Virus genome (UHGV): UHGV-1364187
Length of the DNA: 64,000 nucleotides
Source of the DNA: a virus
Reading direction: 5' to 3' (one strand)
Shown: positions 2,612 to 57,422 of the stretch, piece by piece
Layout: every line of letters starts with the position of its first letter
Numbering within the stretch: position 1 is the first letter of the stretch
Program-made: the position numbers and the translations under genes
Notes under the pieces: generated by a model
Database searches by the model: none
What the model saw: the letters and a program-made list of their open reading frames with translations, nothing else
Told to the model about the DNA's origin: nothing

Positions 2612-3990
2612 CTGCTGGAAACTCCTTAGAGCTAAATAAACTACAACGTAATCTGTAAAGATAAGCGTGAATGTTTGAAAATTATTTAGATTGGACAATC
2701 AGCAGCCAAGTTATCAATTATAATTTAACAATAAATGAAATTATATAAGTGATAGTAATACATATTACTATACTAAAATATATAAGGAGGTATTGTTATG
2801 AATGATAATTTCATAGTACCAGCATTTATTGTTAAAGAAAAAAGTAAGAGAAGAATTTATGGAACATCTTTTACAAAAAGAACAAGAACTTATATTTTAT
2901 GGCTACACTATATTTGAATATCCAGAAGAATGGAGACCTATAGAATGCTTTGATATTAAAAAAGGATTATACTTAATATCTAATTATGGTCGTGTGTATA
3001 GTATGCAACACAATGTGAATTATCGGTTTTACCTAATGATGGTTACAGACAAGTTGTATTACAAACAAAAGACAATAAAAGAAAGACATATTCCATACAT
3101 AGATTAGTTATATATACATTCATTCCAAAAACTGATGAAGATATAATAAATCAAAGAGATTATATTAATCATAAGAATCTTCATAGAGATTGTAATTTCA
3201 CATGGAATCTTGAATATGTAACACCTAATGAGAATACTATACACGCTATAATTAATAATGCCATTGGTGAAGATTATTCTTATGAATATAGTGGAAATTG
3301 GAGTAAAGGTGAAAGAACATTCGGTGAAAATAACGGAATGTCAGAGTGGACAGAAGAACAAGTTCATATTATATGTCAAGCATTACAAGATGGGAAAATC
3401 TACAAAAGATGCATTAACTTTAGCTGGAATTCCTGTAACTGATAACGCTATTTATAATGTAAGTCATATTGTTCAAGGTAAAAGGTGGAAGTATATTTCT
3501 AGTCAGTATAATATTCAACAGAAATGGAAGATAACTGATAAATCCGATTTTGTAATTCCAGTATGTGAATTGTTAGAGAAAGGTTATAGTCCATCTGAAA
3601 TTTATGAATTACTTCCAGATATTCTTGGTAAAAGAGATAATGTATTACCGTTTATACGAGGTATTAAAAGACGTAAATATTATACTAATATTAGTAAGAA
3701 TTATAATTGGTAAAAGGTTCAACGACTATCGAAAAGACATGTGCAAACATGGAACTTAGTAGAGTACACTTTATATAAAGTGGAAATGGGAGGCTTCTCT
3801 ATAAAGAGATGAAGATATAGTCTATCCGATATAGAAATATATCGCTATACTTATACGGATATTATAAATATTTCGTTATTTATAAAAATGATAGTCGTAT
3901 AAGTATTAAATTCCGAAGATGGGGACCAACTTTCGAGTAAAGTAGCGTATACGCTTGAAGCTAATGATGAGCTTGATAAGTATATGAATT
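2556..3990 (+). mobile_element. group I self-splicing intron carrying a degenerate HNH homing-endonuclease ORF; boundaries approximate
   Basis: 5' block TAACTGCTGGAAACTCCTTAGAGCT...AATCAGCAGCCAAGTT (CTGCTG/CAGCAG pairing) and 3' core GTTCAACGACTATCGAAAAGACATGT...ACATGGAACT.AGTAGAGTACAC...AGTGGAAATGG...GATATAGTCT (P7-like GACTAT/ATAGTC) are shared with the second intron at 37.4-37.8 kb. The HEG ORF sits in a peripheral loop between the two blocks. Confidence 0.7.
2799..3713 (+). pseudogene. HNH/NUMOD4 homing endonuclease gene, interrupted by at least three frameshifts
   Basis: Frame A 2799-: MNDNFIVPAFIVKEKSKRR. Frame B 2829..3107: PEEWRPIECF...YLISNYGRVYS (NUMOD4-like). Frame C ~3026..3440: GYRQVVLQTKDNKRKTYSIHRLVIYTFIPKTDEDIINQRDYINHKNLHRDCNFTWNLEYVTPNEN (HNH motif). 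Frame D 3258..3713: GKSTKDALTLAGIPVTDNAIYNVSHIVQGKRWKY (C-terminal HTH typical of HNH HEGs). The shifts coincide with the A6 run at ~2836, the T4 run at ~3027 and the A4 run at ~3408. Confidence 0.7.
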
Positions 3991-10390: not shown

Positions 10391-12016
10391 CTATATTAGT
10401 AATAAATATATTAATACTTCTTCCATAATAATAGAAGGTATGTTTTCTACAATAGTCCCATTGAGTTCTGGATCATCATAATCTACAATCTTAAAAGTAC
10501 TTACTGATAAAGTTGCAATGAAAGATAGAATATCTTCTACAAATCTATCATGTTCTTTTCTAGATTGAGAATATCTCATTTTCATCTCTTTCTCTATATT
10601 AGGGTCATAATACATATTGCTATCAACTCCAACAATATCATTCATTGAGAATACGTTAGATAGACCTACATATTTCTCTATTACATATTTAAAGTAGATT
10701 GAGTTAGATAGTTCTGTATATTCTTTTTTATTGATATTCTTCTTCCTAATAAGCTTAACAACATTACCACTTATTATATATGGTAATATTCTTAAGTTAT
10801 GGCCTTCTAATAATCTCTTAGCAGCTATTACTAGTTTGATATATTCTTCTATATTATCAAGAGATTTGATACTCATTGGATCTCCAAAATACTTCATGAA
10901 TAGATTGAATACTAATTCTTTTTGAAATTTATTGATCTTTCCTCCGAACTCTTTATAATAGAAATTTATTTCGTCTTGTTCAAAAGGACCATATAACATT
11001 TCTATTTGCTTCATTGTATATGAGCAGTTTACATCATTTTGCAATAACAATGATTCATCATTACGAATTAATAAACTCTCATATTTATCAAACTCACTAT
11101 TATTATCTTCATCTCTGTTAGATAATGATAAAGGAATGAAACTGTATTCCCATGTAATACCAGTAATTTGAAATCCATTGTTGTTATTGATAGAACCAAA
11201 GTTCAAACTAACAATGTTCTTATTATATACATACTTAGGTAATACATTTAAGAGAATATTATCTATACATGATAATGCATGTGTAGTAACGTTTTTACTT
11301 CTGATATCTTGTTGATCCCACAATCCAGTATCACGCTTATATGAAGTATTAACATTTGTAATTGCTGTTTCATATAACTTATTGTATAGATCAACATCAC
11401 TGTACAATTCGATATTCAATAATATATCACATATTGTAAGAATAAAGTTATTGTCATCTTCTGAAGATCTCATATACATAAAATGACATGCTAATGGAAT
11501 GATCATATTCATTAACATACTAATTCTCATTAACAGTTTAGCATGTCTATTAGTATAACAAATAGCTGAATTGTTATTCTTATATACTAAGTCTATTATA
11601 TAATTATCATCGTTCATATTCTTAACTTTCCATAGAATAGTAGGAGATAATATATATCTTTGTATATCAGCTAAAAAATTGTCTTTGGTATAAGAAGCTT
11701 CATAATCGATAAGATATTTTATTTTAGAATAAATCATAAATAACTCTTTATCTTGATCATAGAACTTCTCGAAATAGTTTAAATAATGACACATATGCTC
11801 TTTCATCTCTTGAGTTGCATAGCATCGTTTGGACGTTAGAATAAAATAATCTATAGATCGTTTATCTTCATCATCTAATCCATAGAAATCGAAAATAGGA
11901 GCAACAAATGCTCCTTTACAATGTGTGAATAACATATCATCCTCATTAGGAATCCAATCATCCACTTTAGGATTGTTATAAGATCTCTCTTCTGATATTG
12001 TTGCTGGTACTATCAT
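10391..12016 (-). CDS. hypothetical protein (541 aa) starting with the terminal tag MIVPATISEERS
   Basis: RBS AAGGAGG-10 nt-ATG; N-terminal IVPATI plus charged module. Confidence 0.55.
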   Translation of the reverse strand: MIVPATISEERSYNNPKVDDWIPNEDDMLFTHCKGAFVAPIFDFYGLDDEDKRSIDYFILTSKRCYATQEMKEHMCHYLNYFEKFYDQDKELFMIYSKIKYLIDYEASYTKDNFLADIQRYILSPTILWKVKNMNDDNYIIDLVYKNNNSAICYTNRHAKLLMRISMLMNMIIPLACHFMYMRSSEDDNNFILTICDILLNIELYSDVDLYNKLYETAITNVNTSYKRDTGLWDQQDIRSKNVTTHALSCIDNILLNVLPKYVYNKNIVSLNFGSINNNNGFQITGITWEYSFIPLSLSNRDEDNNSEFDKYESLLIRNDESLLLQNDVNCSYTMKQIEMLYGPFEQDEINFYYKEFGGKINKFQKELVFNLFMKYFGDPMSIKSLDNIEEYIKLVIAAKRLLEGHNLRILPYIISGNVVKLIRKKNINKKEYTELSNSIYFKYVIEKYVGLSNVFSMNDIVGVDSNMYYDPNIEKEMKMRYSQSRKEHDRFVEDILSFIATLSVSTFKIVDYDDPELNGTIVENIPSIIMEEVLIYLLLI

Positions 12017-12919: not shown

Positions 12920-14617
12920 TTACATGTATTTATTCTCTGCAGTATTTCTACAGATAAATTGATTTGATGTATAAATCAATGTAAGAATTTTAGCAATAGC
13001 ATCTAATACTGCACAATCTGATTCAATAGATGCAATAATATCTTTATTAAATTCTTTCTTTACGACATCGTATACTACAGTTCCTTTTTGTTCAATGATA
13101 TTATTAATAATCCCATCAGAATCTGTAATATTCGAATTTGAATATAAGATTTTAATAAGATTTCTATATGATCTATTGATAATATTCTTTATAGTATCTT
13201 TATGATAATCATTAGAATAATCAATTACATATGATGCGTATAATCCTTCAACATTAGATGCCATACCATAACCATGTTCATCAGCAGATCTAATATTAAG
13301 AACAGCATCTTCTACTAAATCTCTTACAGAATCTCTATCAGCAGCACTAATACCACCAATATGAAATTCTACTAAATTTCCTTTAAGAGATTGAATTCTA
13401 CGTTTCATCTCACCAATTTCATGAGCATTTGCTCCTTGTTCTTTTCGTTTCTTTAATTCTGTCTCTAAATAGTTTAAGTGAACATTGAATGTTTTTGAAT
13501 AGTCTCCATTTTCATCTCTCATTTCTTTTGGATTGACAAATTTGGATTTATCAGCATCACATTCAAATACTTCACATGTACCGTAGAAATCTTTTGAAAT
13601 ATTATCTAATGTTGGAGCTAATCCCTTTTTAACCATTTCTTCATAGATCTTCTTATCAATAGATTTCTGAATAGGTTTTGCTCCAATCATTTTAATGATA
13701 TCCATATATTGTTCTGTTTGTGTAATATTCGTAACTACACATAATGGAAGTCTACTCTCTGATGATTGTTGAGAGAACATTCCAATGATATTGTCTATGT
13801 AATTACTCATATCCCTAGAAATACTTGGTACCAAGATTACAGTTGGTACAATCATATCTGGTTTATTTTCATTGATAGCTGTAACAATATTATCATAGAT
13901 AATCTTATCAAAGAATTGAGCTTGTTCTAATGTATTGATAGGATCAATAAATGCATAGATTCTTGGTTTAGGAATAATACATTTATTCTTAGATGTATTT
14001 ACAAATGATGGGTCCATATATCCACATTGTAAATTCATACCGTTATATTCTTTTAAAGCTGTTACTCCATTAGAAGATACAGCTACGTCGATGAATACAC
14101 CTGAACCAAATTTAGCATAAATATCTCTTAATGTTTCAGCAATTCTTACGTTTCCATTAGTAGATACCATTGCAATTTTATATACAGCATCTAAATCTAA
14201 TTCTTTAGATCTAGTTTTAATTTGTTTAATAATATCATTAACTACACTTTGGAATTGTCTCATAACTTCAAAAGGTGTTAAATCTTTAGATATAGAGCTT
14301 TTTAACAATTCTTCAAAGATAAGATGTGAAAGTAAAATAGCTGATGTTGTTCCATCTCCAACTTCTTTTACTACAGATCTTGTAATTTCATAGATATCTT
14401 CTTTAGTCGAACTTTCAATATCTCCTATAACTTCAATTTTACTCAAAATAGACTTACCGTCTTTTGTATATCTTGTAAGAGTTTGAGTACCTCCACTGAT
14501 TGTAGTGTTAGATCCATCAGGACCAAAAGATAACTTTAAACAATCTGCTAAGAATTTTAAAGTTTCTAATCTAACCTCTACTAATTTTTTACCTGATACT
14601 ACATTTGATCTAATCAT
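12920..14617 (-). CDS. GroEL/Cpn60-family chaperonin
   Basis: LADCLKLSFGPDGSNTTI...TKDGKSILSKIEV...VKEVGDGTTSAILLSHLI aligns to the GroEL segment LADAVKVTLGPKGRNVVL...TKDGVSVAREIEL...AGDGTTTATVLA (GDGTT ATP-binding motif). Confidence 0.75.
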   Translation of the reverse strand: MIRSNVVSGKKLVEVRLETLKFLADCLKLSFGPDGSNTTISGGTQTLTRYTKDGKSILSKIEVIGDIESSTKEDIYEITRSVVKEVGDGTTSAILLSHLIFEELLKSSISKDLTPFEVMRQFQSVVNDIIKQIKTRSKELDLDAVYKIAMVSTNGNVRIAETLRDIYAKFGSGVFIDVAVSSNGVTALKEYNGMNLQCGYMDPSFVNTSKNKCIIPKPRIYAFIDPINTLEQAQFFDKIIYDNIVTAINENKPDMIVPTVILVPSISRDMSNYIDNIIGMFSQQSSESRLPLCVVTNITQTEQYMDIIKMIGAKPIQKSIDKKIYEEMVKKGLAPTLDNISKDFYGTCEVFECDADKSKFVNPKEMRDENGDYSKTFNVHLNYLETELKKRKEQGANAHEIGEMKRRIQSLKGNLVEFHIGGISAADRDSVRDLVEDAVLNIRSADEHGYGMASNVEGLYASYVIDYSNDYHKDTIKNIINRSYRNLIKILYSNSNITDSDGIINNIIEQKGTVVYDVVKKEFNKDIIASIESDCAVLDAIAKILTLIYTSNQFICRNTAENKYM

Positions 14618-24990: not shown

Positions 24991-25028
24991 AAAATAAAGA
25001 AGAGTACTAATACTCTTCTTTATTATCT
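24991..25028. terminator. terminator AAGAAGAGTACTAATACTCTTCTT
   Basis: palindrome with A/T tracts. Confidence 0.65.
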
Positions 25029-25029
25029 T

Positions 25030-25723
25030 TTATTCTTTTGGTTCTATTGTTGCTGGAACAATCAGTTGTTTAATCTCATTTACACTTTTATTGAGTTGAT
25101 TTTCCAGATTATCAATTCTAATATTCATTCCACATATAGCATTCATAATCTTTTGTTGATTACTTATAACAGATGGTATAAATATATCATTTAATAATTT
25201 ACCAATATTATATAACTGGTTAAGATTATCAATATCATACGAATTACCATTTATATCCATCATTGTTGTAAATGGATAATATTGAGTATTATCTGTAAAA
25301 GTATCTTTAACTTTATCTATTTCGTATATTGGATTATTCATTTGGAAATTTGGATCATGATTTTGATCTGTATATGTACCATTCATATAGATAGATGGTA
25401 ATAATTCATAAGAAATCCAATTCTTAAATTCTTCAGCGAATGGCATTTTAGAACTATAAATTAAATTGAATACATCTGGTAGTTTAATAAAATTTGTAGA
25501 ACGCTCTCTATTCATTGAATCTATTACCTGTTGTTTTGACAGGTAATCGCAATGTGCCTTTAATGCAAGAACGACTCTTTGGATGATAACCTAAAATATC
25601 TAACACATCATTAGCACAGAATAACGTATCCATCTGGTTACCACTCTCTGCTGGGATAATTCTTACACTTCCTAAATTGTTGAAAATAAACTCTTGTACT
25701 TTATTCATTTTTGATTCCTCCAT
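25030..25723 (-). pseudogene. Bro-N domain protein split into two ORFs (25723..25508 and 25515..25030); C-terminal tag QLIVPATIEPKE
   Basis: Both halves are paralogous to the 47344..46736 Bro-N protein. At the junction, AATAGA-ttcaatg-AATAGA looks like a 13-nt duplication that shifts the frame and creates a new ATG. Confidence 0.55.
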
Positions 25724-26083: not shown

Positions 26084-26860
26084 TTAATCAAAGAAACCTT
26101 TCTTAAGTTGACGTCTTTTGTTACCTTCTAGCTTATCAATATCAGGTTCTTGATTTTCATATATTTTATTTTGATCATTAGGTTGCCACATATTTGTACC
26201 GAATGGTGGTCTTCCGAAATATGCCATTAATGTACTAGCGGCATTGTACATATCTATAGATCCAATTAAATAATATAATTCCATAAATGAATCCATATTC
26301 ACTTCAAAACTATTTCCATTATTGATTGTAAATACAACACCAGAAACCATTTCTCCTTTATTATCCATTACACATGGATGTATTATTATATAATTACCTT
26401 GATTTAATCCTTTTATTATTAATTCATGTTGACCGAATATAACCATTTTATTATCTCTCGTACCATAAATTCCTGGTATATATTTACCGTCAACAATATC
26501 ACCCATAAACCAATGATATATTATTTCAAATTGACTTCGTATATATAATATATCACATGCCCGTATCATAATAAAATCTTTATTACCAAATTCATCTTGT
26601 CTAGAAGACTCAATAGATAAATAATATGTCATATGTCTTCTAATAGTATTTCCTGCAAATACATTACTATATTTTCTAGTTTCATATCTATATTCTGTAT
26701 GAAATGGCATCTTTTTACCATCATTACTCATATTTGATAATGAAACATTGAATCTTAATAAATAACTACATTTAGATGTCTTACTATATCCTAACCACAT
26801 TAAATCATCTGTTATTTTTTCATAATCATCATGTACAAATACAGCTGGAATTTCAGCCAT
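26084..26860 (-). CDS. hypothetical protein
   Basis: ORF. Confidence 0.45.
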   Translation of the reverse strand: MAEIPAVFVHDDYEKITDDLMWLGYSKTSKCSYLLRFNVSLSNMSNDGKKMPFHTEYRYETRKYSNVFAGNTIRRHMTYYLSIESSRQDEFGNKDFIMIRACDILYIRSQFEIIYHWFMGDIVDGKYIPGIYGTRDNKMVIFGQHELIIKGLNQGNYIIIHPCVMDNKGEMVSGVVFTINNGNSFEVNMDSFMELYYLIGSIDMYNAASTLMAYFGRPPFGTNMWQPNDQNKIYENQEPDIDKLEGNKRRQLKKGFFD

Positions 26861-27837: not shown

Positions 27838-27859
27838 TTGAAACTATGACAAAAATATG

Positions 27860-29428
27860 TCATAGTTTCTTTATTATAAATGCTGGTACTATATAAGCAG
27901 GTTTAATCATACATCCATTATATATTCCACTATTATCTATAAATGCTGGTATTTGTAAATTCTTTTTAGGAGTAAGTTCTTTAGATTTTGTTACTAATGT
28001 AAAATCATCTAAAGTTATTACATTATAGCTCTTAGCATATGTTTTAAATATATCTTTTTTACTATTAAAGAAATCTCTACATGATTTAAATCCTATATCT
28101 ACTATATCTATATATTTTGTATTATTGCCTCTTGTTCTACCTAAAGTTTGTCTCGCTAATACTTCTGATCTAAAAGGTTCGGCTAACATAATTGTCATTT
28201 GTAATCCTCGTATATCAGTTGCAGCTCCACAACTTTTAGTAGTACTAAGAATAATATCACATTGTAATTGGTCTTCTTTATTACCTTGAACTTTGGAATG
28301 ATATTTTCCAACACTCAGATTAGGATATTCATTTAATATCCAATTATATACATAGTCTATAGCATCTATAGTGGCTAAATATATAAGTGTCTTTCCATGT
28401 TTCATGGCTATATTAATTACTATTCTGAGCATATGAATGAAATTCTGTTGTTTACATACATAATTGGCATAATTTACAGAACTAAATCCTTTTCTAGTTC
28501 TGCAATTTTGTATATCTCTTGCTGTAGGTCTAGAATTATATTTAATTGCTATATAATCGGTATGTGGATCATTATCTCCATCAAACAAATCTATAGATGG
28601 GACATTTTTAAAGTAATAATTATATATTACATTCTCATCTCTACTACTTCTTGCTGGAGTAGCTGTAATATAGAATGTCTTATAAGTATTTGTATAGAAA
28701 TCTATTTTACAAATATTATCGAAGTTTAAATGTGCTTCATCATAAAATTTAAGTCCTATCTTCATAAATTTAAACAATTCTGTTATCTTATCCCATCCAT
28801 TCTTTTCACCATACGATCTTAATGTTGCATGTGTAGCCAATATATATTTATATTGAGATATATCTTTTTGTAATAACCTTACTATGGAACCAGAACCCTC
28901 TATAATATATATTTCATCAGATGATGTATTTGTATATTCCATTATACAATTTTTCCACTGTTCTATCCATCCACTAGAATTCATTATAAATATACTTCTC
29001 ATCTTATATAAAGTGGTAACAGCTATAGAGCAATATGTTTTACCTTTACCAGTATTAAGATTTAATGCAAGTTGAGAATACTTCTTTGTGAAATCATATT
29101 CCTTTACACCATACATAAATGCTATAGCTCTTTTTTGTATATCATCTCTTGGCATATATTTCATTTTAGATGGTTCTATATGATCATATTTATCTACATT
29201 TCTATCTATAGATGCATATGATTGAAACATATTTTCTAACATTGGAACATCTATTCCTCTTGGTAATATAAGCTGTTGAGTATCTTCTTTGTATTCCATT
29301 CCTTTAAAATATGAAGAGAATGTAATGTCATTCCAGAGACTGAACATATACTCAAGTTGTGGCATATCACAAAGTGTATATTTATTTATAACTATACTTG
29401 ATTGTCTTAATTGTATCTTGCTAGACAT
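27860..29428 (-). CDS. SF2 DEAH-box DNA helicase; C-terminal tag AYIVPAFIIKKL
   Basis: Walker A LNTGKGKT; motif II FYDEAH; motif III ITATPAR; motif VI QTLGRTRG. Confidence 0.75.
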   Translation of the reverse strand: MSSKIQLRQSSIVINKYTLCDMPQLEYMFSLWNDITFSSYFKGMEYKEDTQQLILPRGIDVPMLENMFQSYASIDRNVDKYDHIEPSKMKYMPRDDIQKRAIAFMYGVKEYDFTKKYSQLALNLNTGKGKTYCSIAVTTLYKMRSIFIMNSSGWIEQWKNCIMEYTNTSSDEIYIIEGSGSIVRLLQKDISQYKYILATHATLRSYGEKNGWDKITELFKFMKIGLKFYDEAHLNFDNICKIDFYTNTYKTFYITATPARSSRDENVIYNYYFKNVPSIDLFDGDNDPHTDYIAIKYNSRPTARDIQNCRTRKGFSSVNYANYVCKQQNFIHMLRIVINIAMKHGKTLIYLATIDAIDYVYNWILNEYPNLSVGKYHSKVQGNKEDQLQCDIILSTTKSCGAATDIRGLQMTIMLAEPFRSEVLARQTLGRTRGNNTKYIDIVDIGFKSCRDFFNSKKDIFKTYAKSYNVITLDDFTLVTKSKELTPKKNLQIPAFIDNSGIYNGCMIKPAYIVPAFIIKKL

Positions 29429-29507: not shown

Positions 29508-30452
29508 TTAGTATAAGTTATCAAGTAAATAATCATATAGTATACTTAATATAATTGGTTTTATATAATCTTTAATACTTCCACATTCAAATAATGATTC
29601 GTCATAATTTGAGTTTATACATCTGCAATACATTGTAGCAACAATTCTATTAATACATTTGTATATATGTTCAACAAGATCATTAATACTATTAATATAC
29701 ATATTATCATGTAAATTAGTTTCGATTTTAATACCATATGAGTTATCTACTGTTGTGAATGATATAAAATTAAGTTTTGAACCATTATTATATAATGGTT
29801 CAAATATAATTATAGGATATAGTGATGTATCGAATAATAATGAAGAGAACATAATATCTAATTCTCTCTTATAACAATCATTCATATAATTAAAGAAATC
29901 ATATATATTGAATGTAGTCAATACACCATTACATATATTATTGTCTATATATTGTATAATTACGGATCTAATAAAATTTGTTCTTGAATCTAAATAATAA
30001 TCTGCAAACATATTCGCATCAATTTCATAGTCTATATTTTCATAATTATCTCTATAATTTTTATCATCTATTCCAGTTATTTCATATTTATTATTTTCCA
30101 TTTGCCATATATGTCTGCATTCATGTGCTAATGTATGAGCTAATCCTCTAATAAATATATGCATATTAAATCTTCTATGAAAATATATAATATTATTCAC
30201 AAAACAATCTATATTATATCTATCTTCATCTTCACTTGTTAGCATTCCTAATAAACCACCATTACTCATTTGTAACCCTTCATCATATAAAATGTATATA
30301 CATATAGGCTTCTTTGTTATATTCAATTCCGCAGTTAGATCATCTATAAATATCATACATAAGTCATATATTATTTTCTTTCTATCTGTAATAACGTTTG
30401 TAACTTGTATATTTTTATCAAATGTTGCTGGAATAACTGGCATTCTATCCAT
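29508..30452 (-). CDS. putative HExxH metallopeptidase; N-terminus MDRMPVIPATFDKN
   Basis: GLAHTLAHECRHIWQ contains HECRH; N-terminal terminal-tag module. Confidence 0.5.
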   Translation of the reverse strand: MDRMPVIPATFDKNIQVTNVITDRKKIIYDLCMIFIDDLTAELNITKKPICIYILYDEGLQMSNGGLLGMLTSEDEDRYNIDCFVNNIIYFHRRFNMHIFIRGLAHTLAHECRHIWQMENNKYEITGIDDKNYRDNYENIDYEIDANMFADYYLDSRTNFIRSVIIQYIDNNICNGVLTTFNIYDFFNYMNDCYKRELDIMFSSLLFDTSLYPIIIFEPLYNNGSKLNFISFTTVDNSYGIKIETNLHDNMYINSINDLVEHIYKCINRIVATMYCRCINSNYDESLFECGSIKDYIKPIILSILYDYLLDNLY

Positions 30453-30457
30453 AATCT

Positions 30458-31450
30458 CTATCTCCTATCTGTAATATAACGATCAAATAATATATATAAT
30501 TCTCTTGTAAATGATACTATAAACGAATCTATGGATTGTAATAAAGCTACACATACAAATGAATCATCTTTACTAATTCCCTCATCGTATATAATTTCAG
30601 ATGCTATATCTATAATAGATGAAACAAATAATGATTTAGTATAGCTTATAATAGACTCTAAATCATAATTTATCTTGATATTACAATTGAATTTTATAAC
30701 GCATGTATCTCTATTTAAATTATAGTCTATTATATAATAGACATCGTTCTGATCTTCCAAATACCAATTTTGATAAGATATCATTGTGTCTATATTCATT
30801 TCATCAAGTATAGATTGAATGTAATATGAATTATTAGAGACATAATATATCCAATGTATTAAATCGAACTCTGGTATATTGTTATATACACTATTTATTA
30901 TAACACAATGGATTAGTCTATATATGATACCATCTAAATATAGTTTATTGATTATCTGATTTGTATAACTTTCTATATCAGCATTATATTCATCATCTTC
31001 TATAATATCATAACCATCTACATATTCACAACAAGTCCATCCATATCCGAATATATTTGTAAATTGATATATAGACCTCATTATCTTTATAAATGATGGA
31101 AGTATTTTGATAAGATATTCTTCTACAGATAACATACTATATTTATTATCTATACTATACATATTTATATATATTCTGAATGTGTCTTTCATATTAAAGT
31201 CTGATGGATATTCTATATCCATTTCATATTCATTGCTAGAATACACAAACTCCAACACAATTCTATCAGCTACATCGCTTAAATCTAGATCATATTCTAA
31301 TATAGGTTTTATCCTATATAGAAAGTCTCTCAATATACGAGTTCTATCTTGATATATTGTTGCTGGTGATATTAGTTTTTTATGTTCTTTGTGTATTTCT
31401 GCTGGTACTATTAAATTATATTCTTTACATATCTCTGCTGGTATAATCAT
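30458..31450 (-). CDS. hypothetical protein with three tandem N-terminal tag repeats
   Basis: N-terminus MIIPAEICKEYNL-IVPAEIHKEHKKL-ISPATIYQDRTRIL. Confidence 0.55.
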   Translation of the reverse strand: MIIPAEICKEYNLIVPAEIHKEHKKLISPATIYQDRTRILRDFLYRIKPILEYDLDLSDVADRIVLEFVYSSNEYEMDIEYPSDFNMKDTFRIYINMYSIDNKYSMLSVEEYLIKILPSFIKIMRSIYQFTNIFGYGWTCCEYVDGYDIIEDDEYNADIESYTNQIINKLYLDGIIYRLIHCVIINSVYNNIPEFDLIHWIYYVSNNSYYIQSILDEMNIDTMISYQNWYLEDQNDVYYIIDYNLNRDTCVIKFNCNIKINYDLESIISYTKSLFVSSIIDIASEIIYDEGISKDDSFVCVALLQSIDSFIVSFTRELYILFDRYITDRR

Positions 31451-31481: not shown

Positions 31482-33551
31482 TTATTCTTCATCTCTTTTT
31501 ACTATCGTTGCTGGAACTACCATATCATTATTATATTTAACTTCTGTAGAATAATCCCCAGGAGCATTAATAAAATCATAATAGTTAACCATAAAGAATA
31601 AATCCATAAAACTTGGAGATCTCTTCTTAAATGTTGCTGCTGTATAAATAGCTCTCTTAGTTCTTTCATATGATAATGAGATAGCTACACTAGGATGATT
31701 ATTCAATGCTTTACTTAATGTCAAGATTGTATATCTGTTATTGTTAGGAATAGACCAATCTGGTTTTTCTAAGATTTCATCAGATTCAAGTCCAAGTCTA
31801 ATTTGATTTGCTATAATAACTTCACAGTGTATAGCATCTGTCTTTACATCACCCTCAATACATGTTTCAACAAATGTTTGGATTAATGAATCTATAGTAT
31901 GTTTAGATGTAACTTCGCTCTTATTGATAAGATTAGTTAATCTCTTAAGAGTATCAGCAAGACCATTATTTCTAATCTGCATCATAAATATATTCATTTC
32001 ATTAATCTCATCAAATGGTATTGTAACAATACCATCAACATCAGTATATTTATCTATCATAGCAGATAGTTCTGGTGTAAAGTAAATATCATCATCATCT
32101 TCTGTTGACAATGAGAATAAGTTTCCTTCTTCATCTCTAACTTTAATCTCACATACAGATTGATTATACTCATAGTTTTCATATTCATTTTCAATATGAA
32201 TTTCACTATCAATAATCAATAAAGTGTCTTTTATCTCTATATCATCTCTAATAGATATAAGATTTCCATCTAATATAAAGAAGTCACCAAATTGTTTAAC
32301 CCATTTAAGTTCTTTAATTTTCGCTTCTAATAGATGCTTTGCTGATAAAAGTTTTTGAGTCAATTCTGATGATAATAATTCAGCTGCAATCTTACCAATA
32401 TTGATATCCCTATTAGTGTATGCAACATCCCCATAACATTTATAACAAATACCATTACCTTCTGAAAATGATTTACATTTAGCAGGAGATCTAAAGTAAA
32501 CAGTTTTACCAATAAGATCCATTTCCATTCCTGTTATCATAAACTCTTGTCCATCTGGATAGAATCTATAATATCTAGAGATATATTTCTTCAGCATTTC
32601 ATAACTAGTAATAGTTATCTTAACGAAATTTCTTGTACCACAATCATAATTTGGATCTTCATTAAGCTCTGTATCTTGATTATTTAAACCTAATAAACGT
32701 GCTAAATGCCCACTATCAGATACATTAGTCTTAGATAATAATTGTGCAGTACGACCACTATATTCCTCAATAGTGTGTTCTGTAGCATTACTTAATCCAC
32801 CAACAATATAGTTTGAATTAATAATCTTACTAAAGATCCCACCAACTCCATTTGGTTTAGCACCACCAGCTACAGCAAACTCTCTATGCTGTTTCTTATT
32901 AATAGCTTCTCTAGCTTTAAATGAATCTTTATAACAATGATCTTCTGAATTTTTAATAATATCAACAAGTTCATCATTAAGTTGATTTGCTATATTATTA
33001 ACTTCATTTATAGGATATCCAGATAAATCACAATGCATAATATCGTATGCTCTCGGGTTTTCATTCATAAGATCTCTATAATCTTTAAGATTAGCAGTAT
33101 TAGCCAAGAACATACTAAATTCATCTATAGATTTGAATTGATATTCGATATCATCTATGATATTATTTAACCTAATATTATCCATATCTTTTCTATATGG
33201 AATAATAAGATAATTATTGATAAAGTCTGCTATCATGTCAGCTACAAAATCATCTTCAAATACTAGATGTTTTGGTTCGATATGATTTCCTGTCATAACT
33301 ACAAGTTTCCATAATGCTATATTAGTATAACTATCTGGTATTGACAAATCAACATCTGTACCATCGTCAAACACATAAGTGATAAAGTTGGACATTACTT
33401 GATCACTATTAATTCCATCTCTTAATACATTTAAGAGAGAGTTAAAGTAATAATCTACATTATCAGATGTAATATCTTTTGTGTAGATTATTGTTTTCTC
33501 GCCTCTTGTAAAACTTACAAAAGGACCATAGTTTTCTGGATAATCAAACAT
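31482..33551 (-). CDS. multisubunit RNA polymerase beta-prime homolog, C-terminal fragment; C-terminal tag [14 protein letters not shown]
   Basis: [53 protein letters not shown] aligns to the beta-prime trigger-loop region SPLTC..[63 protein letters not shown] aligns to [22 protein letters not shown] (region F). Confidence 0.7.
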   Translation of the reverse strand: [689 protein letters not shown]

Positions 33552-37778: not shown

Positions 37779-38849
37779 TTGAACTTAGATTTTTGGTATA
37801 GATTTATCAAAGATAAAGTAATCGGTATTGATATGAAAATTAAACATGAAATGTATGACATTGCAGAAATCATTAAAGCTGATGAATTTGGTGATAGAGA
37901 AATGATGAAGCCTGCAGAGATAGTAGATATCGAAGATGATTATGATTTCTATGAAGATGAAACAGTAGAAATGGAAAGATTAATCAATCCTGCAAAATTA
38001 GTACCAAATGACTCATTAAGATATTCTATAATAAATATTATAGCATACTTATGTGGTAATATGATTAATGAAGAGATGGTATTATACACAAAACAGAACA
38101 ATTCTTATAGTCCTGATAGACCATGTAGTCTTATTATGAAGAATGAATTCTTATTTAAAAGAGTTTTATTGACAAATGTAAAGAAAAGCTACGCTAGCAT
38201 CATAGAGGTTCAGGAAGGAAATATAGTACCATCTTCCAGTTCATTGGACGTGAAAGGATTACAAATTAGAAAATCAACACTACCAAAAAGAACAAGAGAT
38301 CAATTACAAAGTATATTATATGAAGATATACTAAACTCTGGAGATAATCTCGATCAAAGATGCATACTCAAAGATATTATATTATTAGAAAAACAAATTT
38401 ATAAATCACTTACATCTGGTAGTAAAGAATACTTTAGACCAGCACAAGTTAAAGCTATGGGATCATATGAAAATCCACTAAGAATTTCTGGATTTAAGGG
38501 ATGTGTTGTATGGAATGAGTTAACAGATCTTAATACAGAAAAACATGATCTTAATATTAGAAATGCTGTTGATATTATCAAAGTAGTTTTAAATGCAAAA
38601 ACTGTCGATAAATTAAAAGATTTTCCTGATGTATATGAGAGAGCTGTGAAGCTATTAAACGATCCATCATTTGCAGGGGGAATTAATGGTATATCTGTAC
38701 CATTAGGAGTAGAAACACCAGAGTGGTTATATCAAATTATCGATTATAATACAATTATTAATGATAATTTATCAGTAATGCCATTAGAAAGTGTAGATAT
38801 AATTATTGGAAATTCCAATATAAACTATTCAAATATGGTGCAAATGTAA
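37779..38849 (+). CDS. family-B DNA polymerase, exon 2 (thumb)
   Basis: Open frame resumes right after the intron core. The ORF-track TTG at 37779 is not a real start. Exact 3' splice site not determined. Confidence 0.6.
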   Translation: MNLDFWYRFIKDKVIGIDMKIKHEMYDIAEIIKADEFGDREMMKPAEIVDIEDDYDFYEDETVEMERLINPAKLVPNDSLRYSIINIIAYLCGNMINEEMVLYTKQNNSYSPDRPCSLIMKNEFLFKRVLLTNVKKSYASIIEVQEGNIVPSSSSLDVKGLQIRKSTLPKRTRDQLQSILYEDILNSGDNLDQRCILKDIILLEKQIYKSLTSGSKEYFRPAQVKAMGSYENPLRISGFKGCVVWNELTDLNTEKHDLNIRNAVDIIKVVLNAKTVDKLKDFPDVYERAVKLLNDPSFAGGINGISVPLGVETPEWLYQIIDYNTIINDNLSVMPLESVDIIIGNSNINYSNMVQM

Positions 38850-38886: not shown

Positions 38887-39469
38887 TTATTGTTGCTGGA
38901 ATAATTAATTTATTGTATCTCATCTCTGCATGTGTGCCATACTCATCATATGGAAGATTATTATCAACTCCAGCAAAGTTTAAAAACTCGTTAGAATCTA
39001 CTAAATTATTATTGCTTATAATATTTCCTATAGATTCTAATGATCCATCTAATTGATTTTTATCAATTTCTAATGTATTAGTAATTCCTTTATCACTATC
39101 ACCCCATTGAACATGATATTCATATGGAGCATCCGATATTGGATTACCATATAAATCACATTGTCTAACTTGACATAATCTCATATCAACTCCAACTGTA
39201 GGTCTCATAATTCCATCATAATTATAAAAACAATTAGTTTGAGTATAAAAATGTACAACACAATCATTTGATATATCTGTGTTTATGTAGTTAGATTTAA
39301 TATAGTCTATAATCCATTGTGTAGTGTTACTATCGTTTCTATATACAAAATCGTTTCTAAACATAATTTCATCATAGAATTCGCTTGTATCTGGATTTAG
39401 GTTACAGTCATCAGATACAATAAGACAATTAGTCTCATAGTTTAATAATACATATAAATTTTTTAACAT
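38870..39469 (-). CDS. hypothetical protein; C-terminal tag KLIIPATIIKEES
   Basis: The ORF-track GTG start lies inside the RBS AAAAGGTGG; trimmed to the ATG at 39469. Confidence 0.5.
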   Translation of the reverse strand: MLKNLYVLLNYETNCLIVSDDCNLNPDTSEFYDEIMFRNDFVYRNDSNTTQWIIDYIKSNYINTDISNDCVVHFYTQTNCFYNYDGIMRPTVGVDMRLCQVRQCDLYGNPISDAPYEYHVQWGDSDKGITNTLEIDKNQLDGSLESIGNIISNNNLVDSNEFLNFAGVDNNLPYDEYGTHAEMRYNKLIIPATIIKEES

Positions 39470-46623: not shown

Positions 46624-46735
46624 TATAAACATCTCCTTTAAAATTTACATTATTATTTATTATTAACAGATTTTCTGTTAATGATATTTATATCTTTCTT
46701 CTTTCGGAACAAGTATTGCTGGAACAACCATATGT

Positions 46736-55265: not shown

Positions 55266-57422
55266 ATGGTTCAACAACAATTTACGTATCAACAGAAAGT
55301 ATACTATGATACTTCTACAACTAATGCATCATTTATACGGATGCATTATTATTTAAAACAATCTGGTAGAACAAATAATATGTTTATGCTGTCTATATTT
55401 GATCCAGATCTTATAGGTATTAATCCTAGAGATCCAAGATTAAATAAGATTATGAAACTTAAAATTTTTAAAGAAGTTAAAGTAAATTTCTGGTATTTCA
55501 TAAGAGAAGTTATTAGGATACCTGACCAAGGTGGTGCTATAGGTAGCGGTAAACAATATGAACTTCATCGTGGAAATATGGCTATGAACTTTGGATTTAT
55601 ACTTAACTGGTGTATGTTTGTAGAGTTTCCTCGACAGAATGGTAAAACGATTAGTGCTGTATGTTGGTATTTGTGGTTATTTAATTTCGGAACAACTAAC
55701 TCTGAAATTATGTTTATTAATAAATCATTCTCTGACTCTAAACTTAACCTTGAACGTCTTAAAGATATTAGAGAAGCACTTCCTGATTATCTAAGAATGG
55801 ATCAACCTATTAGAGATAGAGACGGTAAGCTTATTAAACCAGTATCTAGGGTAGAAACATTAGAGCATATTACTAATGGTAATAAAATTAAAACTCTTGC
55901 ATCAGCAACAAGTGAATCTGTTGCTAATACTAGAGGACGTGGATGTACTCAACCTTGTCAATGGTATGATGAACATGCATTCATACCTCATGTTGATTTA
56001 GTATATAAATCAGCTACGCCTGCATACAAAACAGCATCTCAAAATGCTCGTACTAATGGTAAAAACTATGGTATTCTTATTACAACAACACCTGGTGATT
56101 TGACAACTAAATCTGGTAAAGCATCTAATGCTGTTAGATTAGCAGCTACTCCATTTAATGAGAAATTCTACGATTTACCATTAAATGAATTACAAGAGAT
56201 TATTTCAAGAAATACAGATTCTCCATTTGTATATATTAGATACACATATCAACAACTTGGTAGAGGAGAAGATTGGTTTAGAGAAATTTGTATTCTTATG
56301 CAAAAAGACTGGAGTGCTATTAGACGTGAAGTATTACTTGAATGGTCTACTGCATCTGATAATTCTCCATTTACAAAAGAAGATTTAAATAAAGTAAAAC
56401 AATGGATAGTTCAAGAACCTATTCATACTATGATGATTAGAGGATTCTTTGTAAATATTTATTCTCAAATGGATCCAAGTGTATCCATGTTCCAATATCC
56501 ACCATTAATAGGTGTCGATGTATCTGGTGGATATCAACGAGATTCATCTGCTATTACTATAGTAGATTCAAAAGATACAAAAGTAGTAGGAGATTTAAAT
56601 TATAACTATATTAAACAAGACGATTTAGCTGCAGTTATATATGATCTAGTTACGCTTTATATGCCAACTGCAATTGTAAACATTGAACGAAATGGTGGAT
56701 TTGGTGCTTCTGTATTATCTAAACTTGTAAAAACTAAGATTAAACGAAATTTATATTATGAGATTAAAGATAGAGTAATAGAAGAACGTGTAGTTAATGG
56801 ATCTGTAAATAAAATTAAAAAGAAAGTGAAATGTTATGGATTCGATAATACTAAGAATAGTCGTAATAGATTGATGGATATTCTTAGAAACAGAATGGAT
56901 AATCATAAAGATAAGTTTATATCTCCTATTATATATAGAGAACTGGAAGGACTTATTGTAACAAAAGATGGAAGAATAGATCACTCTACAGAAACTCATG
57001 ATGACCAAGTATTTTCTTATCTATTAGCACTATATATGTGGTATGATGGTAAGAGTATGAAAGAAACTTGGGGATTAGACAAGAGAGAATTATTAACAGA
57101 TGAAGAAAGTGATGAAGTTATTAATGATATTAGTGAAAAAGAATATAATATCATGAAAGAACTAGGTCTAGTTGATAATGAAGTTGTTAAATCTCAATTG
57201 GATAAACTCGATAAGTCTATAACATATGAACAATATAGACAGAAAGAATATGAAGAAGATCAAAAAGCTTTACAACAACTCATTAGAACAAATCCAAGAG
57301 CATTACAAGAATATGCAAGATTAAATGCATTAGATCCAGAAGAATTAAAGATACAAACTAATACTGGAGTATTTGTTGTGCCAGCATCTGTATATGATAT
57401 GAGTCATATAGATGATGAATAA
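55266..57422 (+). CDS. terminase large subunit (T4 gp17-like)
   Basis: Walker A FPRQNGKT (compare T4 SRQLGKT). Nuclease-domain IGVDVSGGYQRDSSAITIV. C-terminal HDDQVFSYLLALYMW. Confidence 0.8.
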   Translation: MVQQQFTYQQKVYYDTSTTNASFIRMHYYLKQSGRTNNMFMLSIFDPDLIGINPRDPRLNKIMKLKIFKEVKVNFWYFIREVIRIPDQGGAIGSGKQYELHRGNMAMNFGFILNWCMFVEFPRQNGKTISAVCWYLWLFNFGTTNSEIMFINKSFSDSKLNLERLKDIREALPDYLRMDQPIRDRDGKLIKPVSRVETLEHITNGNKIKTLASATSESVANTRGRGCTQPCQWYDEHAFIPHVDLVYKSATPAYKTASQNARTNGKNYGILITTTPGDLTTKSGKASNAVRLAATPFNEKFYDLPLNELQEIISRNTDSPFVYIRYTYQQLGRGEDWFREICILMQKDWSAIRREVLLEWSTASDNSPFTKEDLNKVKQWIVQEPIHTMMIRGFFVNIYSQMDPSVSMFQYPPLIGVDVSGGYQRDSSAITIVDSKDTKVVGDLNYNYIKQDDLAAVIYDLVTLYMPTAIVNIERNGGFGASVLSKLVKTKIKRNLYYEIKDRVIEERVVNGSVNKIKKKVKCYGFDNTKNSRNRLMDILRNRMDNHKDKFISPIIYRELEGLIVTKDGRIDHSTETHDDQVFSYLLALYMWYDGKSMKETWGLDKRELLTDEESDEVINDISEKEYNIMKELGLVDNEVVKSQLDKLDKSITYEQYRQKEYEEDQKALQQLIRTNPRALQEYARLNALDPEELKIQTNTGVFVVPASVYDMSHIDDE

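What the first reader, a model, noticed from the sequence alone, without database searches (positions are those of the whole stretch)
10391..12016. Dispersed copies of the same terminal tag on unrelated proteins
Further copies outside the 27.8-33.6 kb cluster:
- 12016 gene, N-terminus MIVPATISEERS.
- 39469..38870 gene, C-terminus KLIIPATIIKEES*.
- Bro-N paralog 25515..25030, C-terminus QLIVPATIEPKE*.
- The other Bro-N paralog has it only in an alternative frame past its stop (46690-46760, GKHMVVPAILVPKEER).
- The intron-encoded HNH endonuclease begins MNDNFIVPAFIVKEKSKRR (2799-2860).

Bearers so far include an RNAP subunit, a helicase, a homing endonuclease, two Bro-N DNA-binding proteins and a peptidase. 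All are nucleic-acid-directed or regulatory proteins, which would fit recruitment to a common DNA-associated hub or compartment.
Basis: seen in the sequence. Interest (0 to 1): 0.7.

Follow-up and report, generated by a model that had tools for sequence, protein, structure and literature searches.

The report
Shared docking tag on phage enzymes
An uncultured giant phage puts the same seven-residue peptide on its DNA polymerase, helicase, RNA polymerase, single-strand-DNA-binding protein and selfish endonucleases, and in related phages the peptide's spelling changes in step on all of them, which points to one shared docking partner that is still unidentified.

Summary
In this 26% GC jumbo-phage window the peptide Φ-Φ-x-P-A-x-I (MIVPATI, LIIPATI, YIVPAFI and similar) occurs 12 times against 0.44 expected. 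Ten copies lie within 30 residues of a protein end.

The gene at 10391-12016 is the homolog of AR9 gp226, the promoter-specificity subunit of the non-virion RNA polymerase. Its tag sits on an unstructured N-terminal tail.

The key new result is co-variation. In related metagenomic phages the same proteins carry a tag at the same places, but each genome has its own spelling: PVTF in one, G-V-x-Y in another, FMKRDK in a third. These proteins are RNAP β'C, the gp226-like subunit, an SF2 helicase, the PolB loop after motif C, a Whirly-fold SSB-like protein and an intron HNH endonuclease. Permutation tests gave 0/5000, 4/5000 and 0/5000. Synonymous codons vary, so selection acts on the peptide, not the DNA.

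AR9, the nearest cultured relative examined, has the same gene order and no tags at these positions.

Best reading: a short linear docking motif for one co-evolving, phage-encoded receptor that gathers DNA-acting proteins. The receptor was not identified. The Whirly-like SSB, a compartment gate and a clamp-like hub remain candidates. The terminase copy is a different, non-co-varying motif.

The parts
10391..12016 (-). Gene for the gp226-like promoter-specificity subunit of the non-virion RNA polymerase (541 aa), which bears the N-terminal tag
   Evidence: phrog_25005 E=1.4e-13. PDB 7S01_A (AR9 gp226) E=1.9e-11 by sequence. AF2 model pLDDT 88.1. Foldseek 7s01_A E=9.3e-15 and phiKZ gp68 8que_B E=6.8e-5.
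11996..12016 (-). Tag MIVPATI, residues 1-7 of the gp226-like subunit
   Evidence: Residues 1-10 have mean pLDDT 60 and there is no secondary structure in residues 1-16. Homologs carry lineage-specific variants at the same place. 37 of 113 homologs match a generic regex against 5.7 expected.
31503..31523 (-). Tag MVVPATI near the C-terminus of RNAP beta'C (ORF 31482-33551)
   Evidence: The protein matches AR9 gp154, 7S00_D, E=3.3e-39. The tag lies on a ~40-residue extension that AR9 lacks. Homolog tails co-vary.
31355..31450 (-). Three tandem tags (MIIPAEI, LIVPAEI, LISPATI) at the N-terminus of the unknown 330-aa protein 30458-31450
   Evidence: No family hit.
30420..30440 (-). Tag PVIPATF at the N-terminus of the unknown 314-aa protein 29508-30452 (contains an HExxH string)
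   Evidence: Only weak hits to PHROGs of unknown function.
27875..27958 (-). Three tags (LQIPAFI, MIKPAYI, YIVPAFI) at the C-terminus of the SF2 helicase 27860-29428
   Evidence: ResIII E=5.5e-11 and phrog_16. Homolog tails carry 1-3 genome-specific copies.
26837..26857 (-). Tag AEIPAVF at the N-terminus of the Whirly/PUR-fold SSB-like protein 26084-26860
37902..38000 (+). Two tags (MMKPAEI 37902-37922, LINPAKL 37980-38000) in the DEFGD...DYDF loop of the PolB polymerase domain, after motif C (DTDS)
   Evidence: The loop carries the genome-specific tag in most relatives examined. The gene is split by a group I intron, so the loop is probably internal.
38888..38908 (-). Tag LIIPATI at the C-terminus of the unknown 203-aa protein 38870-39481
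   Evidence: No family hit.
25045..25065 (-). Tag LIVPATI at the C-terminus of the Bro-N protein 25030-25515
   Evidence: Bro-N PF02498 E=2.2e-7.
2810..2830 (+). Tag FIVPAFI in the leader ORF (from 2799) of the fragmented intron HNH endonuclease
   Evidence: Sub-threshold group I intron halves flank the ORF. The intron HNH of a relative starts MINPITF..FINPITF in that genome's spelling.
46711..46731 (-). Tag-like MVVPAIL, off-frame just downstream of the stop of Bro-N 46736-47344. It is a relic or is reached by a frameshift.
57372..57392 (+). FVVPASV at the terminase large-subunit C-terminus. It looks like the tag but is probably NOT part of the system.
   Evidence: The motif [YF]x[IL]Pxx[VI]Fx[DN]F is conserved through the TerL family. 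It does not follow the genome's tag spelling.

Best explanation
The tag is a short linear docking motif. It is a seven-residue hydrophobic peptide, Φ-Φ-x-P-A-x-I in this genome, usually followed by charged residues. It is displayed on flexible termini or on one surface loop, often in two or three tandem copies.

Shown here:
- It marks the proteins that work on the phage DNA: both parts of the split PolB, an SF2 helicase, a Whirly-fold SSB-like protein, two subunits of the non-virion RNA polymerase, intron homing endonucleases and Bro-N proteins.
- Its sequence is selected at the peptide level.
- All copies in one genome share a spelling that differs between related genomes.

Inferred:
- All copies bind one receptor site, and that site co-evolves with them. 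The receptor is therefore phage-encoded rather than a conserved host protein.
- Binding concentrates these proteins at the replicating and transcribed phage DNA.
- Tandem copies add avidity.
- Selfish endonucleases adopt the local spelling in order to gain access.

The receptor was not identified. The leading candidate is the Whirly-like SSB, because SSBs are classical replisome hubs. It is also the only bearer of the two modelled here whose own tag is modelled with high confidence next to a folded domain.
For: (1) Enrichment and end bias in the window: 12 hits against 0.44 expected, 10 of 12 terminal.

(2) Co-variation between genomes.
- Window: PAxI.
- 244-kb contig (L081): beta'C VVCPVTF; helicase IYPVTF/VVPVAF/ISPVKF; SSB-like IEPVSF; PolB loop INPVTF/IEAVTF; HNH MINPITF x2; gp226-like MINPVTF/QNPVMF.
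- 256.5-kb contig (L083): LINGVIY, LIRGVYY/LIRGVTY, MINGIEY, LFRGVYY, MINGVYY.
- The same holds in roughly 20-25 further distinct lineages, for example FMKRDK, KLFxKIE, GMxY and CPIYY.
- Permutation tests, within-genome against between-genome similarity of tails of unrelated proteins: 18.66 vs 15.51 (0/5000), 17.08 vs 15.06 (4/5000), 19.23 vs 15.28 (0/5000).

(3) Peptide-level selection: synonymous codons of the tags vary freely in L081, L083 and L019.

(4) Flexible display.
- The gp226-like tag has pLDDT about 60 and is unstructured.
- The beta'C tag sits on an extension absent from AR9.
- The PolB tag sits in a clade-specific acidic loop.

(5) Client list.
- Every bearer with a recognisable function acts on DNA or RNA.
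- In the window no tag was seen on the capsid protein, protease, tail sheath, thymidylate synthase, deaminase or GroEL.

(6) The SSB-like bearer has a Whirly fold, a disordered linker and a conserved K-S-F-F-D-x-Φ-D-E-[LM] tip. Its N-terminal tag block has mean pLDDT 87.
Against: - No receptor was found. Nothing in the window has a recognisable clamp or peptide-binding domain.
- A mutual-information scan between the SSB-like protein's tag and its domain columns gave no clear signal.
- Some SSB-like homologs lack the N-terminal tag while other proteins of the same genome keep theirs, for example L027 and L044. The SSB's own tag is therefore dispensable.
- Uniform spelling within a genome could also be kept by gene conversion or by tag-tag contacts, without a separate receptor. 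In the window genome the codons are unusually uniform: Ile ATA 11/11, Ala GCA 12/14.
- The primase and one RNAP beta subunit in the window have no tag.
Confidence: 0.6

Rival explanations
1. The tag is an address label for a DNA-containing compartment, which may be a proteinaceous shell, pore or condensate. It acts like a nuclear localisation signal: anything that must reach the phage DNA needs it. The receptor is then the gate or scaffold of that compartment. This is a special case of the common-receptor idea, but with a different cell biology.
For: - The client list is 'everything that touches DNA'. It includes selfish intron HNH endonucleases and Bro-N proteins, which have no obvious need for a replisome hub yet adopt each genome's spelling.
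- No tag was seen on metabolic and structural proteins.
- Tandem copies fit multivalent partitioning.
- Rapid divergence of the spelling would isolate co-infecting relatives.
Against: - AR9-like phages are outside the chimallin-encoding family and no compartment is known for them (PMC13282480).
- No shell-like protein was recognised in the 72 kb read.
- In chimalliviruses import uses surface patches of folded cargo, not terminal signals (PMC12908238).
- Only two of the RNAP subunits seen carry the tag, and the primase does not.
Confidence: 0.2
2. The tag is a sliding-clamp-binding motif. It would tether polymerase, helicase, RNA polymerase and nucleases either to the host DnaN clamp or to an unrecognised phage clamp. 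This would parallel T4 gp45, which binds C-terminal tails of gp43, gp33 and gp55.
For: - Location on flexible ends, tandem copies and the client list are typical of clamp partners.
- The window spelling [ML]-[IV]-x-P resembles the MutL clamp-binding motif QXX[L/I]XP (QPLLIP, QEMIVP; PMC4678855, PMC6511837).
- A tag on two RNAP subunits parallels T4 late transcription (from my own knowledge of T4).
Against: - The canonical consensus QL[S/D]LF or QΦxLxL is not met (10.64898/2026.05.27.728225).
- The motif changes greatly between related phages, with Pro replaced by Gly and forms such as FMKRDK. That does not fit the conserved DnaN pocket.
- This jumbo-phage group is reported to lack a classical clamp (PMC7824862).
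- None was found in the window. There is only a generic AAA ATPase with weak clamp-loader hits.
Confidence: 0.08
3. The tag is a recognition signal for a protein-handling machine that recognises terminal peptides: the phage GroEL-like chaperonin (12920-14617), the AAA ATPase (43495-44532), or a host protease as a degron.
For: - Terminal position at either end is typical of AAA+ recognition signals.
- The phage encodes a chaperonin and an AAA ATPase.
Against: - The client set is defined by DNA-related function, not by size or folding difficulty. Small Bro-N and HNH proteins carry the tag.
- One copy set is in an internal polymerase loop.
- AR9 has the chaperonin family but none of the tags.
Confidence: 0.05
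4. The repeat is a nucleic-acid element that merely translates to the peptide: a promoter, a terminator part, an intron or mobile-element scar, or a recoding signal. Alternatively it is a compositional accident of a 26% GC genome.
For: - CCAGCA is shared by the eight copies first aligned. In the window the codons are more uniform than codon usage predicts.
- Several C-terminal copies abut terminator hairpins.
- Two copies sit next to frameshifts.
Against: - In relatives the same peptide positions use different synonymous codons, and the spelling changes at the amino-acid level in a coordinated way.
- Every copy but one lies in the reading frame of the ORF that carries it, at matching ends of orthologous proteins.
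- Shuffles give 0.44 hits against 12 observed.
Confidence: 0.02

Closest known systems
Sliding-clamp interaction motifs (bacterial CBM QL[S/D]LF, MutL QXX[L/I]XP, PIP box QxxLxxFF, T4 gp45-binding C-terminal tails of gp43/gp33/gp55)
   Same: - A short hydrophobic peptide on flexible termini or loops of many unrelated DNA enzymes.
- Sometimes present in several copies.
- Ties polymerase, nucleases and, in T4, the transcription machinery to one hub.
   Different: - The consensus is not met.
- No clamp is known or found in this phage group.
- The motif diverges strongly between related genomes while staying uniform inside each, which conserved clamp pockets do not produce.
T7 replisome acidic C-terminal tails (gp2.5 SSB and gp4 helicase tails binding the same patches of gp5 polymerase) and the SSB C-terminal tip hub of bacteria (from my own knowledge)
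   Same: - Similar terminal peptides on unrelated replisome proteins that share a binding site.
- The SSB-like protein here also has a disordered linker and a conserved acidic-aromatic tip (K-S-F-F-D...).
   Different: - Here the shared peptide is hydrophobic and sits on at least 10 protein families, including RNA polymerase and homing endonucleases.
- The polymerase carries the tag rather than receiving it.
- In bacterial SSB the hub carries the tail and the clients carry the pockets.
Terminal targeting peptides of protein compartments (microcompartment encapsulation peptides, encapsulin cargo-loading peptides, eukaryotic NLS; from my own knowledge) and phage-nucleus import in chimalliviruses (PMC12908238)
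   Same: - One short terminal label shared by unrelated cargo proteins of one system.
- Found at the N- or C-terminus, and multivalent in some cargo.
- The cargo set resembles the contents of a phage nucleus: replication, transcription and nucleases.
   Different: - Not an amphipathic helix, not the encapsulin LGIGSL type and not basic like an NLS.
- Chimallivirus import is reported to use folded surface patches, not terminal signals.
- No compartment or shell gene is known for this clade.
Bacillus phage AR9/PBS1 replication-transcription gene cluster (PolB, nvRNAP beta'C gp154, SF2 helicase gp156, gp226)
   Same: Orthologous proteins in the same gene order.
   Different: AR9 lacks every tag. 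Its beta'C and helicase end without the extension, and its PolB lacks the DEFGD...DYDF loop.

Membership tests
Bacterial beta-clamp-binding motif (CBM) | Consensus Q-Φ-x-L-F (QL[S/D]LF) or the hexapeptide Q-Φ-x-L-x-L | tested here: not met
   Tags are Φ-Φ-x-P-A-x-I, with no conserved Gln and a Pro or Gly at the core. Consensus taken from 10.64898/2026.05.27.728225 and PMC6511837.
Bacterial beta-clamp-binding motif (CBM) | Located in flexible terminal regions or exposed loops | tested here: met
   10 of 12 copies lie within 30 residues of an end. The gp226-like tag has pLDDT about 60.
Bacterial beta-clamp-binding motif (CBM) | Binds the hydrophobic cleft of DnaN | not testable with these tools
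   No complex prediction or binding assay is available, and the host is unknown.
MutL-type clamp motif QXX[L/I]XP | Gln, two residues, Leu/Ile, one residue, Pro, conserved across species | tested here: not met
   The window spelling [ML][IV]xP fits the second half. Gln is absent, and relatives replace Pro by Gly or drop it (LINGVIY, KTIFMKRDK). Motif taken from PMC4678855.
PIP box | QxxΦxx[FY][FY] | tested here: not met
   No copy fits.
Phage-encoded sliding clamp system (T4 gp45 type) | A clamp gene and clamp loader in the genome | tested here: inconclusive
   No clamp was found in the 72 kb read. One AAA ATPase has weak clamp-loader hits (E 2e-5). The group is reported to lack a classical clamp (PMC7824862).
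AR9 gp226 / phiKZ gp68 family (fifth, promoter-specificity subunit of the nvRNAP), for ORF 10391-12016 | Sequence and fold similarity to gp226 | tested here: met
   7S01_A E=1.9e-11. Foldseek 7s01_A E=9.3e-15, 8que_B E=6.8e-5.
AR9 gp226 / phiKZ gp68 family | Part of a five-subunit nvRNAP and needed for promoter recognition | not testable with these tools
   Only homology was tested. Two other RNAP subunit genes are in the window.
Whirly / PUR / MRP ssDNA-RNA-binding fold, for ORF 26084-26860 | Two β-β-β-β-α repeats forming the Whirly-like fold | tested here: met
Whirly / PUR / MRP ssDNA-RNA-binding fold | Binds single-stranded nucleic acid | not testable with these tools
   Inferred from the fold and from the SSB-like architecture: a disordered linker and a conserved acidic-aromatic tip.
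Chimallivirus phage-nucleus import | Chimallin shell and PicA; cargo recognised through folded surface patches | tested here: not met
   The phage's closest cultured relatives by RNAP beta'C similarity are AR9-like, and AR9-like phages are outside Chimalliviridae (PMC13282480). The signal here is a terminal linear peptide, whereas chimallivirus import is not (PMC12908238). No chimallin search of the whole genome was possible.
Microcompartment encapsulation peptide / encapsulin cargo-loading peptide | An amphipathic helix of about 18 residues, or a G-S-L-x-I-G-S-L type C-terminal peptide, next to shell genes | tested here: not met
   The tag is a 7-residue Pro-containing motif. No shell genes were recognised. 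The defining features are recalled from my own knowledge.
FtsZ C-terminal peptide mimic (D-I-P-x-F-L-R/K) | The conserved I-P-x-F-L core, which is invariant across bacteria | tested here: not met
   A few copies resemble it (LQIPAFI, YIVPAFIIKK). The motif's conserved positions differ, and relatives diverge completely. The FtsZ consensus is recalled from my own knowledge.

The most novel reading that the evidence does not exclude
The tag is a linear 'entry ticket' to a DNA compartment or condensate in a chimallin-less clade of jumbo phages. This would be the first terminal localisation signal for a viral replication compartment in bacteria.

Its fast-diverging, genome-specific spelling would act as a private code that keeps out the proteins of co-infecting relatives and of the host. 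Selfish homing endonucleases would have to copy the local code in order to reach their target DNA.
Probability: 0.2. Interest if true: 0.92.

Novelty: new variant of a known kind. Interest (0 to 1): 0.72.

Why it matters
- **Organisation of the replisome.** Shared docking peptides are how clamps, SSBs and compartments organise DNA transactions. Here one peptide links replication (both PolB parts, helicase, SSB-like protein), late transcription (two nvRNAP subunits) and selfish DNA elements. This occurs in a phage group reported to lack a classical clamp and a nucleus shell.
- **A route to the organiser.** The tag gives a direct handle for finding the missing organiser, by peptide pull-down or a co-folding screen.
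- **An evolutionary question.** The genome-specific spelling is a rare natural case of many clients co-evolving with one site. It raises the question of how a whole interaction network changes its code, and whether that isolates related phages from each other.
- **A practical use.** The tags could serve as portable, orthogonal localisation tags.
- **Spread.** The family is abundant in metagenomes: hundreds to more than a thousand homologs of each bearer.

Tried and rejected
1. DNA-level element. A search for RTWCCAGCAWYA found 5 sites against 0.13 expected, and codons are uniform in the window. Relatives use varied synonymous codons and different amino-acid spellings, so this was rejected.
2. 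Terminase as a bearer. TerL homologs share a family-wide motif [YF]x[IL]Pxx[VI]F that does not follow the genome's spelling, for example the 218.6-kb contig. Rejected as a member.
3. DNA polymerase 'C-half' as an N-terminal bearer. The gene has a group I intron (RF00028, 81.6 bits, 37377-37721). The frame reopens only at 37770. Unsplit orthologs carry the tag in the same internal loop.
4. Generic regex across 80 related loci. It gave only 1.6-fold end enrichment. The motif has to be defined per genome.
5. Search for a clamp or other receptor among window proteins with Pfam and PHROGs. Nothing was found.
6. Mutual information between the SSB-like protein's tag and its domain. Noisy and inconclusive.
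It was solved by using library representatives.
8. Extending the contig to the left failed, because the products are not on record. The right side gave 8 kb.
9. Cultured relatives. There was no DNA match and no match for the SSB-like protein. AR9 has the cluster but no tags.
10. Literature. No description of such a tag was found.
Full report
**What the window is.** The 64-kb window has 26% GC. It encodes multisubunit RNA polymerase pieces, a split family-B DNA polymerase, a GroEL-like chaperonin, a capsid protein, a protease and a terminase. It has no DNA match among 50,697 phage records. Its RNAP beta'C is about 27% identical to those of AR9/PBS1, phiR1-37 and Staphylococcus jumbo phages. It is positions 6605-70604 of a 256,505-bp metagenomic contig. 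Hundreds of relatives exist in metagenomes, several on contigs of 220-270 kb.

**Checking the observation.** Using the seven-residue form [LIVMFY][LIVM].PA.[ILFV], 85 called ORFs hold 12 copies. Residue-shuffled proteins give 0.44 on average and at most 3 in 500 shuffles. Ten of the 12 lie within 30 residues of a protein end, where 27% are expected (P = 8e-5). The copies are:
- MIVPATI at residue 1 of ORF 10391-12016
- MVVPATI near the C-terminus of 31482-33551
- three tandem copies at the N-terminus of 30458-31450
- PVIPATF at the N-terminus of 29508-30452
- LQIPAFI, MIKPAYI and YIVPAFI at the C-terminus of 27860-29428
- LIIPATI at the C-terminus of 38870-39481
- LIVPATI at the C-terminus of 25030-25515
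- AEIPAVF at the N-terminus of 26084-26860
- two copies in ORF 37779-38849

Eight kilobases past the window on the same contig there are further copies. The PolB exonuclease-domain protein carries three (MFIPARI, LMRPAEF, LYKPAIF) in a C-terminal extension. A 334-residue unknown protein starts MNNLVIPATIEDK.

**Who carries it.**
- ORF 10391-12016 is the homolog of AR9 gp226, the promoter-specificity subunit of the non-virion RNA polymerase: sequence E = 1.9e-11 to 7S01_A, and an AF2 model with pLDDT 88.1 whose Foldseek hits are 7s01_A at E = 9.3e-15 and phiKZ gp68 at 6.8e-5. Its first ten residues have mean pLDDT 60 and no secondary structure, so the tag sits on a flexible tail.
- ORF 31482-33551 is the beta'C subunit, matching AR9 gp154 at E = 3.3e-39. 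The tag is on a ~40-residue extension beyond the end of the AR9 protein.
- ORF 27860-29428 is an SF2 (ResIII) helicase.
- ORFs 36327-37373 and 37779-38849 are one PolB polymerase gene interrupted by a group I intron (RF00028, 81.6 bits). The downstream frame reopens only at 37770, so its two tags are probably internal, in a loop between DEFGD and DYDF just after motif C.
- The remaining bearers are two Bro-N proteins, a fragmented intron HNH endonuclease and four proteins without family hits. The 'peptidase' label for 29508-30452 rests on an HExxH string only.
- No tag was seen on structural proteins, thymidylate synthase, dCMP deaminase, GroEL, the primase or one RNAP beta subunit.

**The decisive result: the spelling co-varies.** Homologs of the gp226-like subunit carry, at the same N-terminal place, motifs such as MIIPARI+IKPAFI, MINPVTF+QNPVMF, MNPISF, LIKPFYF and MINGVYY. 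Thirty-seven of 113 match a generic regex against 5.7 expected. Homologs of beta'C carry similar motifs on their C-terminal tails. When proteins from one contig are compared, the spelling agrees.
- On the 244-kb contig: beta'C VVCPVTF; helicase IYPVTF, VVPVAF and ISPVKF; SSB-like IEPVSF; a 237-residue protein SSPVTF; PolB loop INPVTF and IEAVTF; intron HNH MINPITF twice; gp226-like MINPVTF and QNPVMF.
- On the 256.5-kb contig: LINGVIY, LIRGVYY/LIRGVTY, MINGIEY, LFRGVYY and MINGVYY, with proline replaced by glycine in all copies found.

Across 83 loci around beta'C, of which about 38 are non-redundant, the same holds in roughly two thirds of the distinct lineages, flanking residues included. 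Examples are KTIFMKRDK / RKVFMKRDK, KPLFYKIE / IKLFHKIE, xGMxY, CPIYY and IRPFxF. The best ungapped 6-mer similarity between tails of unrelated proteins is higher within a genome than between genomes:

| Pair compared | Within genome | Between genomes | Permutations reaching the observed value |
|---|---|---|---|
| beta'C vs helicase | 18.66 | 15.51 | 0 of 5000 |
| beta'C vs SSB-like | 17.08 | 15.06 | 4 of 5000 |
| helicase vs SSB-like | 19.23 | 15.28 | 0 of 5000 |

Synonymous codons of the tags vary freely in three relatives, so what is conserved is the peptide. AR9 has the same gene order (PolB, beta'C, helicase) but none of the extensions, and it lacks the polymerase loop. The system therefore appears specific to this uncultured clade; AR9 is the only cultured relative examined.

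**What is excluded.**
- It is not a DNA or RNA element and not a compositional accident.
- The terminase copy (FVVPASV) belongs to a motif conserved through the whole TerL family ([YF]x[IL]Pxx[VI]F). It does not follow the genome's spelling, so it is not counted.
- The canonical clamp-binding consensus and the PIP box are not met. The MutL-type motif QXX[L/I]XP (PMC4678855, PMC6511837) resembles the window spelling, but relatives abandon it.
- A conserved host pocket such as DnaN does not explain the divergence.
- This phage group is reported to lack a classical clamp (PMC7824862), and none was recognised here.

**How it most likely works.** Three properties are shown: peptide-level selection, flexible display that is often in tandem, and a coherent per-genome spelling on DNA-acting proteins. 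From these I infer a short linear docking motif recognised by a single co-evolving receptor, which is most likely phage-encoded. I infer that it concentrates the replication, late-transcription and DNA-targeting accessory proteins at the phage DNA.

The intron homing endonucleases adopt the local spelling in two genomes at two different loci. This suggests the tag is needed for access to, or productive residence on, the DNA.

The receptor is unknown.
- **Whirly-like SSB.** It is my leading candidate, at roughly 0.15-0.2 probability. SSBs are classical hubs, and its own N-terminal tag block is modelled with pLDDT 87 next to the folded domain, against 60 for the gp226-like tail. However, some homologs lack the tag, and a covariation scan was inconclusive.
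- **Compartment or condensate gate.** This is the main rival (0.2). It explains the breadth of clients best. There is no evidence for a compartment in this clade, and chimallivirus import does not use terminal signals (PMC12908238).
- **Alternatives without a separate receptor.** Uniform codons in the window genome (Ile ATA 11/11, Ala GCA 12/14) hint that new spellings spread between genes by copying. Tag-tag contacts cannot be excluded either.

**Novelty and verdict.** Searches of the held literature found no description of this tag. The principle is known from clamps, SSB tips and the T7 replisome. New here are the motif, the clade, the reach across replication, transcription and selfish elements, and above all the coordinated, genome-specific change of spelling. 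I file it as a new variant of a known kind, interest 0.72. There is a 0.2 chance that it is a localisation signal for a so far unseen compartment, which would rank much higher.

Noticed in passing
window 37377-37721 (probably extending to about 37772): A group I intron (RF00028, 81.6 bits) interrupts the PolB polymerase gene right after motif C (DTDS). All three frames are closed from 37722 to 37769, and a further hairpin (GTTCA...TGAAC) suggests a 3' extension of the intron. In a relative (L081) the same site holds an intron with an HNH gene.
   Followed up: partly
window 2612-3850: Sub-threshold group I intron halves (2613-2751, E=9e-4; 3710-3844, E=1.5e-4) flank the HNH ORFs downstream of the RNAP beta gene 1067-2611. 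The HNH reading frame is broken twice. The first break is at an A6 run (about 2840-2846), between the tag-bearing leader and the NUMOD4 part. This could be a pseudogene, an assembly error or a programmed frameshift.
   Followed up: partly
window 46711-46800 and 25030-25723: The Bro-N gene 46736-47344 stops 5 nt before an off-frame tag, and an A5 run (TCAAAAATA) lies just upstream. The other Bro-N gene is split into two overlapping ORFs (25508-25723 and 25030-25515). Frameshifts cluster in these accessory genes.
   Followed up: no
window 38853-38888, 27840-27869, 24993-25024, about 31470-31500: Terminator-like hairpins (15 found against 2.0 expected in 24.5-39.5 kb) overlap or directly follow the last codons of tagged ORFs. 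At 38870-39481 and 27860-29428 the 5' arm of the stem encodes part of the tail after the tag; the hairpin at 24993-25024 lies just downstream of the stop.
   Followed up: partly
window 26084-26860 (C-terminus) and AR9 g161 (L085 11974-12999): The Whirly-fold protein family has a second, well conserved C-terminal motif, K-S-F-F-D-x-Φ-D-E-[LM], after a disordered linker. Unlike the tag it does not change between genomes, so it probably binds a conserved partner. AR9 g161 (341 aa, tail ...DLDDKDGGINF) may be the counterpart. This would be an unrecognised SSB family of AR9-like phages.
   Followed up: partly
window 57372-57422: The terminase large subunit ends with a family-wide motif, [YF]x[IL]Pxx[VI]Fx[DN]F, in an acidic tail. 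This may be the portal-docking peptide. In the closest relatives it happens to read like the tag (YIIPATVF, FIIPAEVF).
   Followed up: partly
window tags overall: In this genome the tags use nearly the same codons: CCA 12/14, GCA 12/14 against 44% usage, final Ile ATA 11/11 against 42%. In three relatives the codons vary. This suggests recent copying of the tag-coding DNA between genes in this lineage.
   Followed up: partly
window 34464-34916: A conserved protein of about 150 residues lies between PolB and beta'C in the relatives examined. It has a conserved C-terminal Q-K-E-Y-Φ-K..Φ-P-x-x-F-R/M motif and a weak PHROG hit to a virion protein (E=7e-5). Its function is unknown.
   Followed up: no
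window 12920-14617, 43495-44532, 16696-17853, 44683-45579, 41690-42697: Other notable genes: a GroEL-like chaperonin two genes from the gp226-like subunit, a single-module AAA ATPase (PF00004, E=1.6e-19), an M48-like metallopeptidase next to the capsid gene, an alpha-amylase-like domain protein, and thymidylate synthase.
   Followed up: no
L070 7559-9391; L081 16364-17077; L023 8698-9558: Relatives have additional bearers of their own spelling with no counterpart recognised in the window: a 610-aa protein with ICPIYYF 41 residues from its end, a 237-aa protein ending SSPVTFVEE..., and a 286-aa protein starting MNIKPVIF.
   Followed up: no
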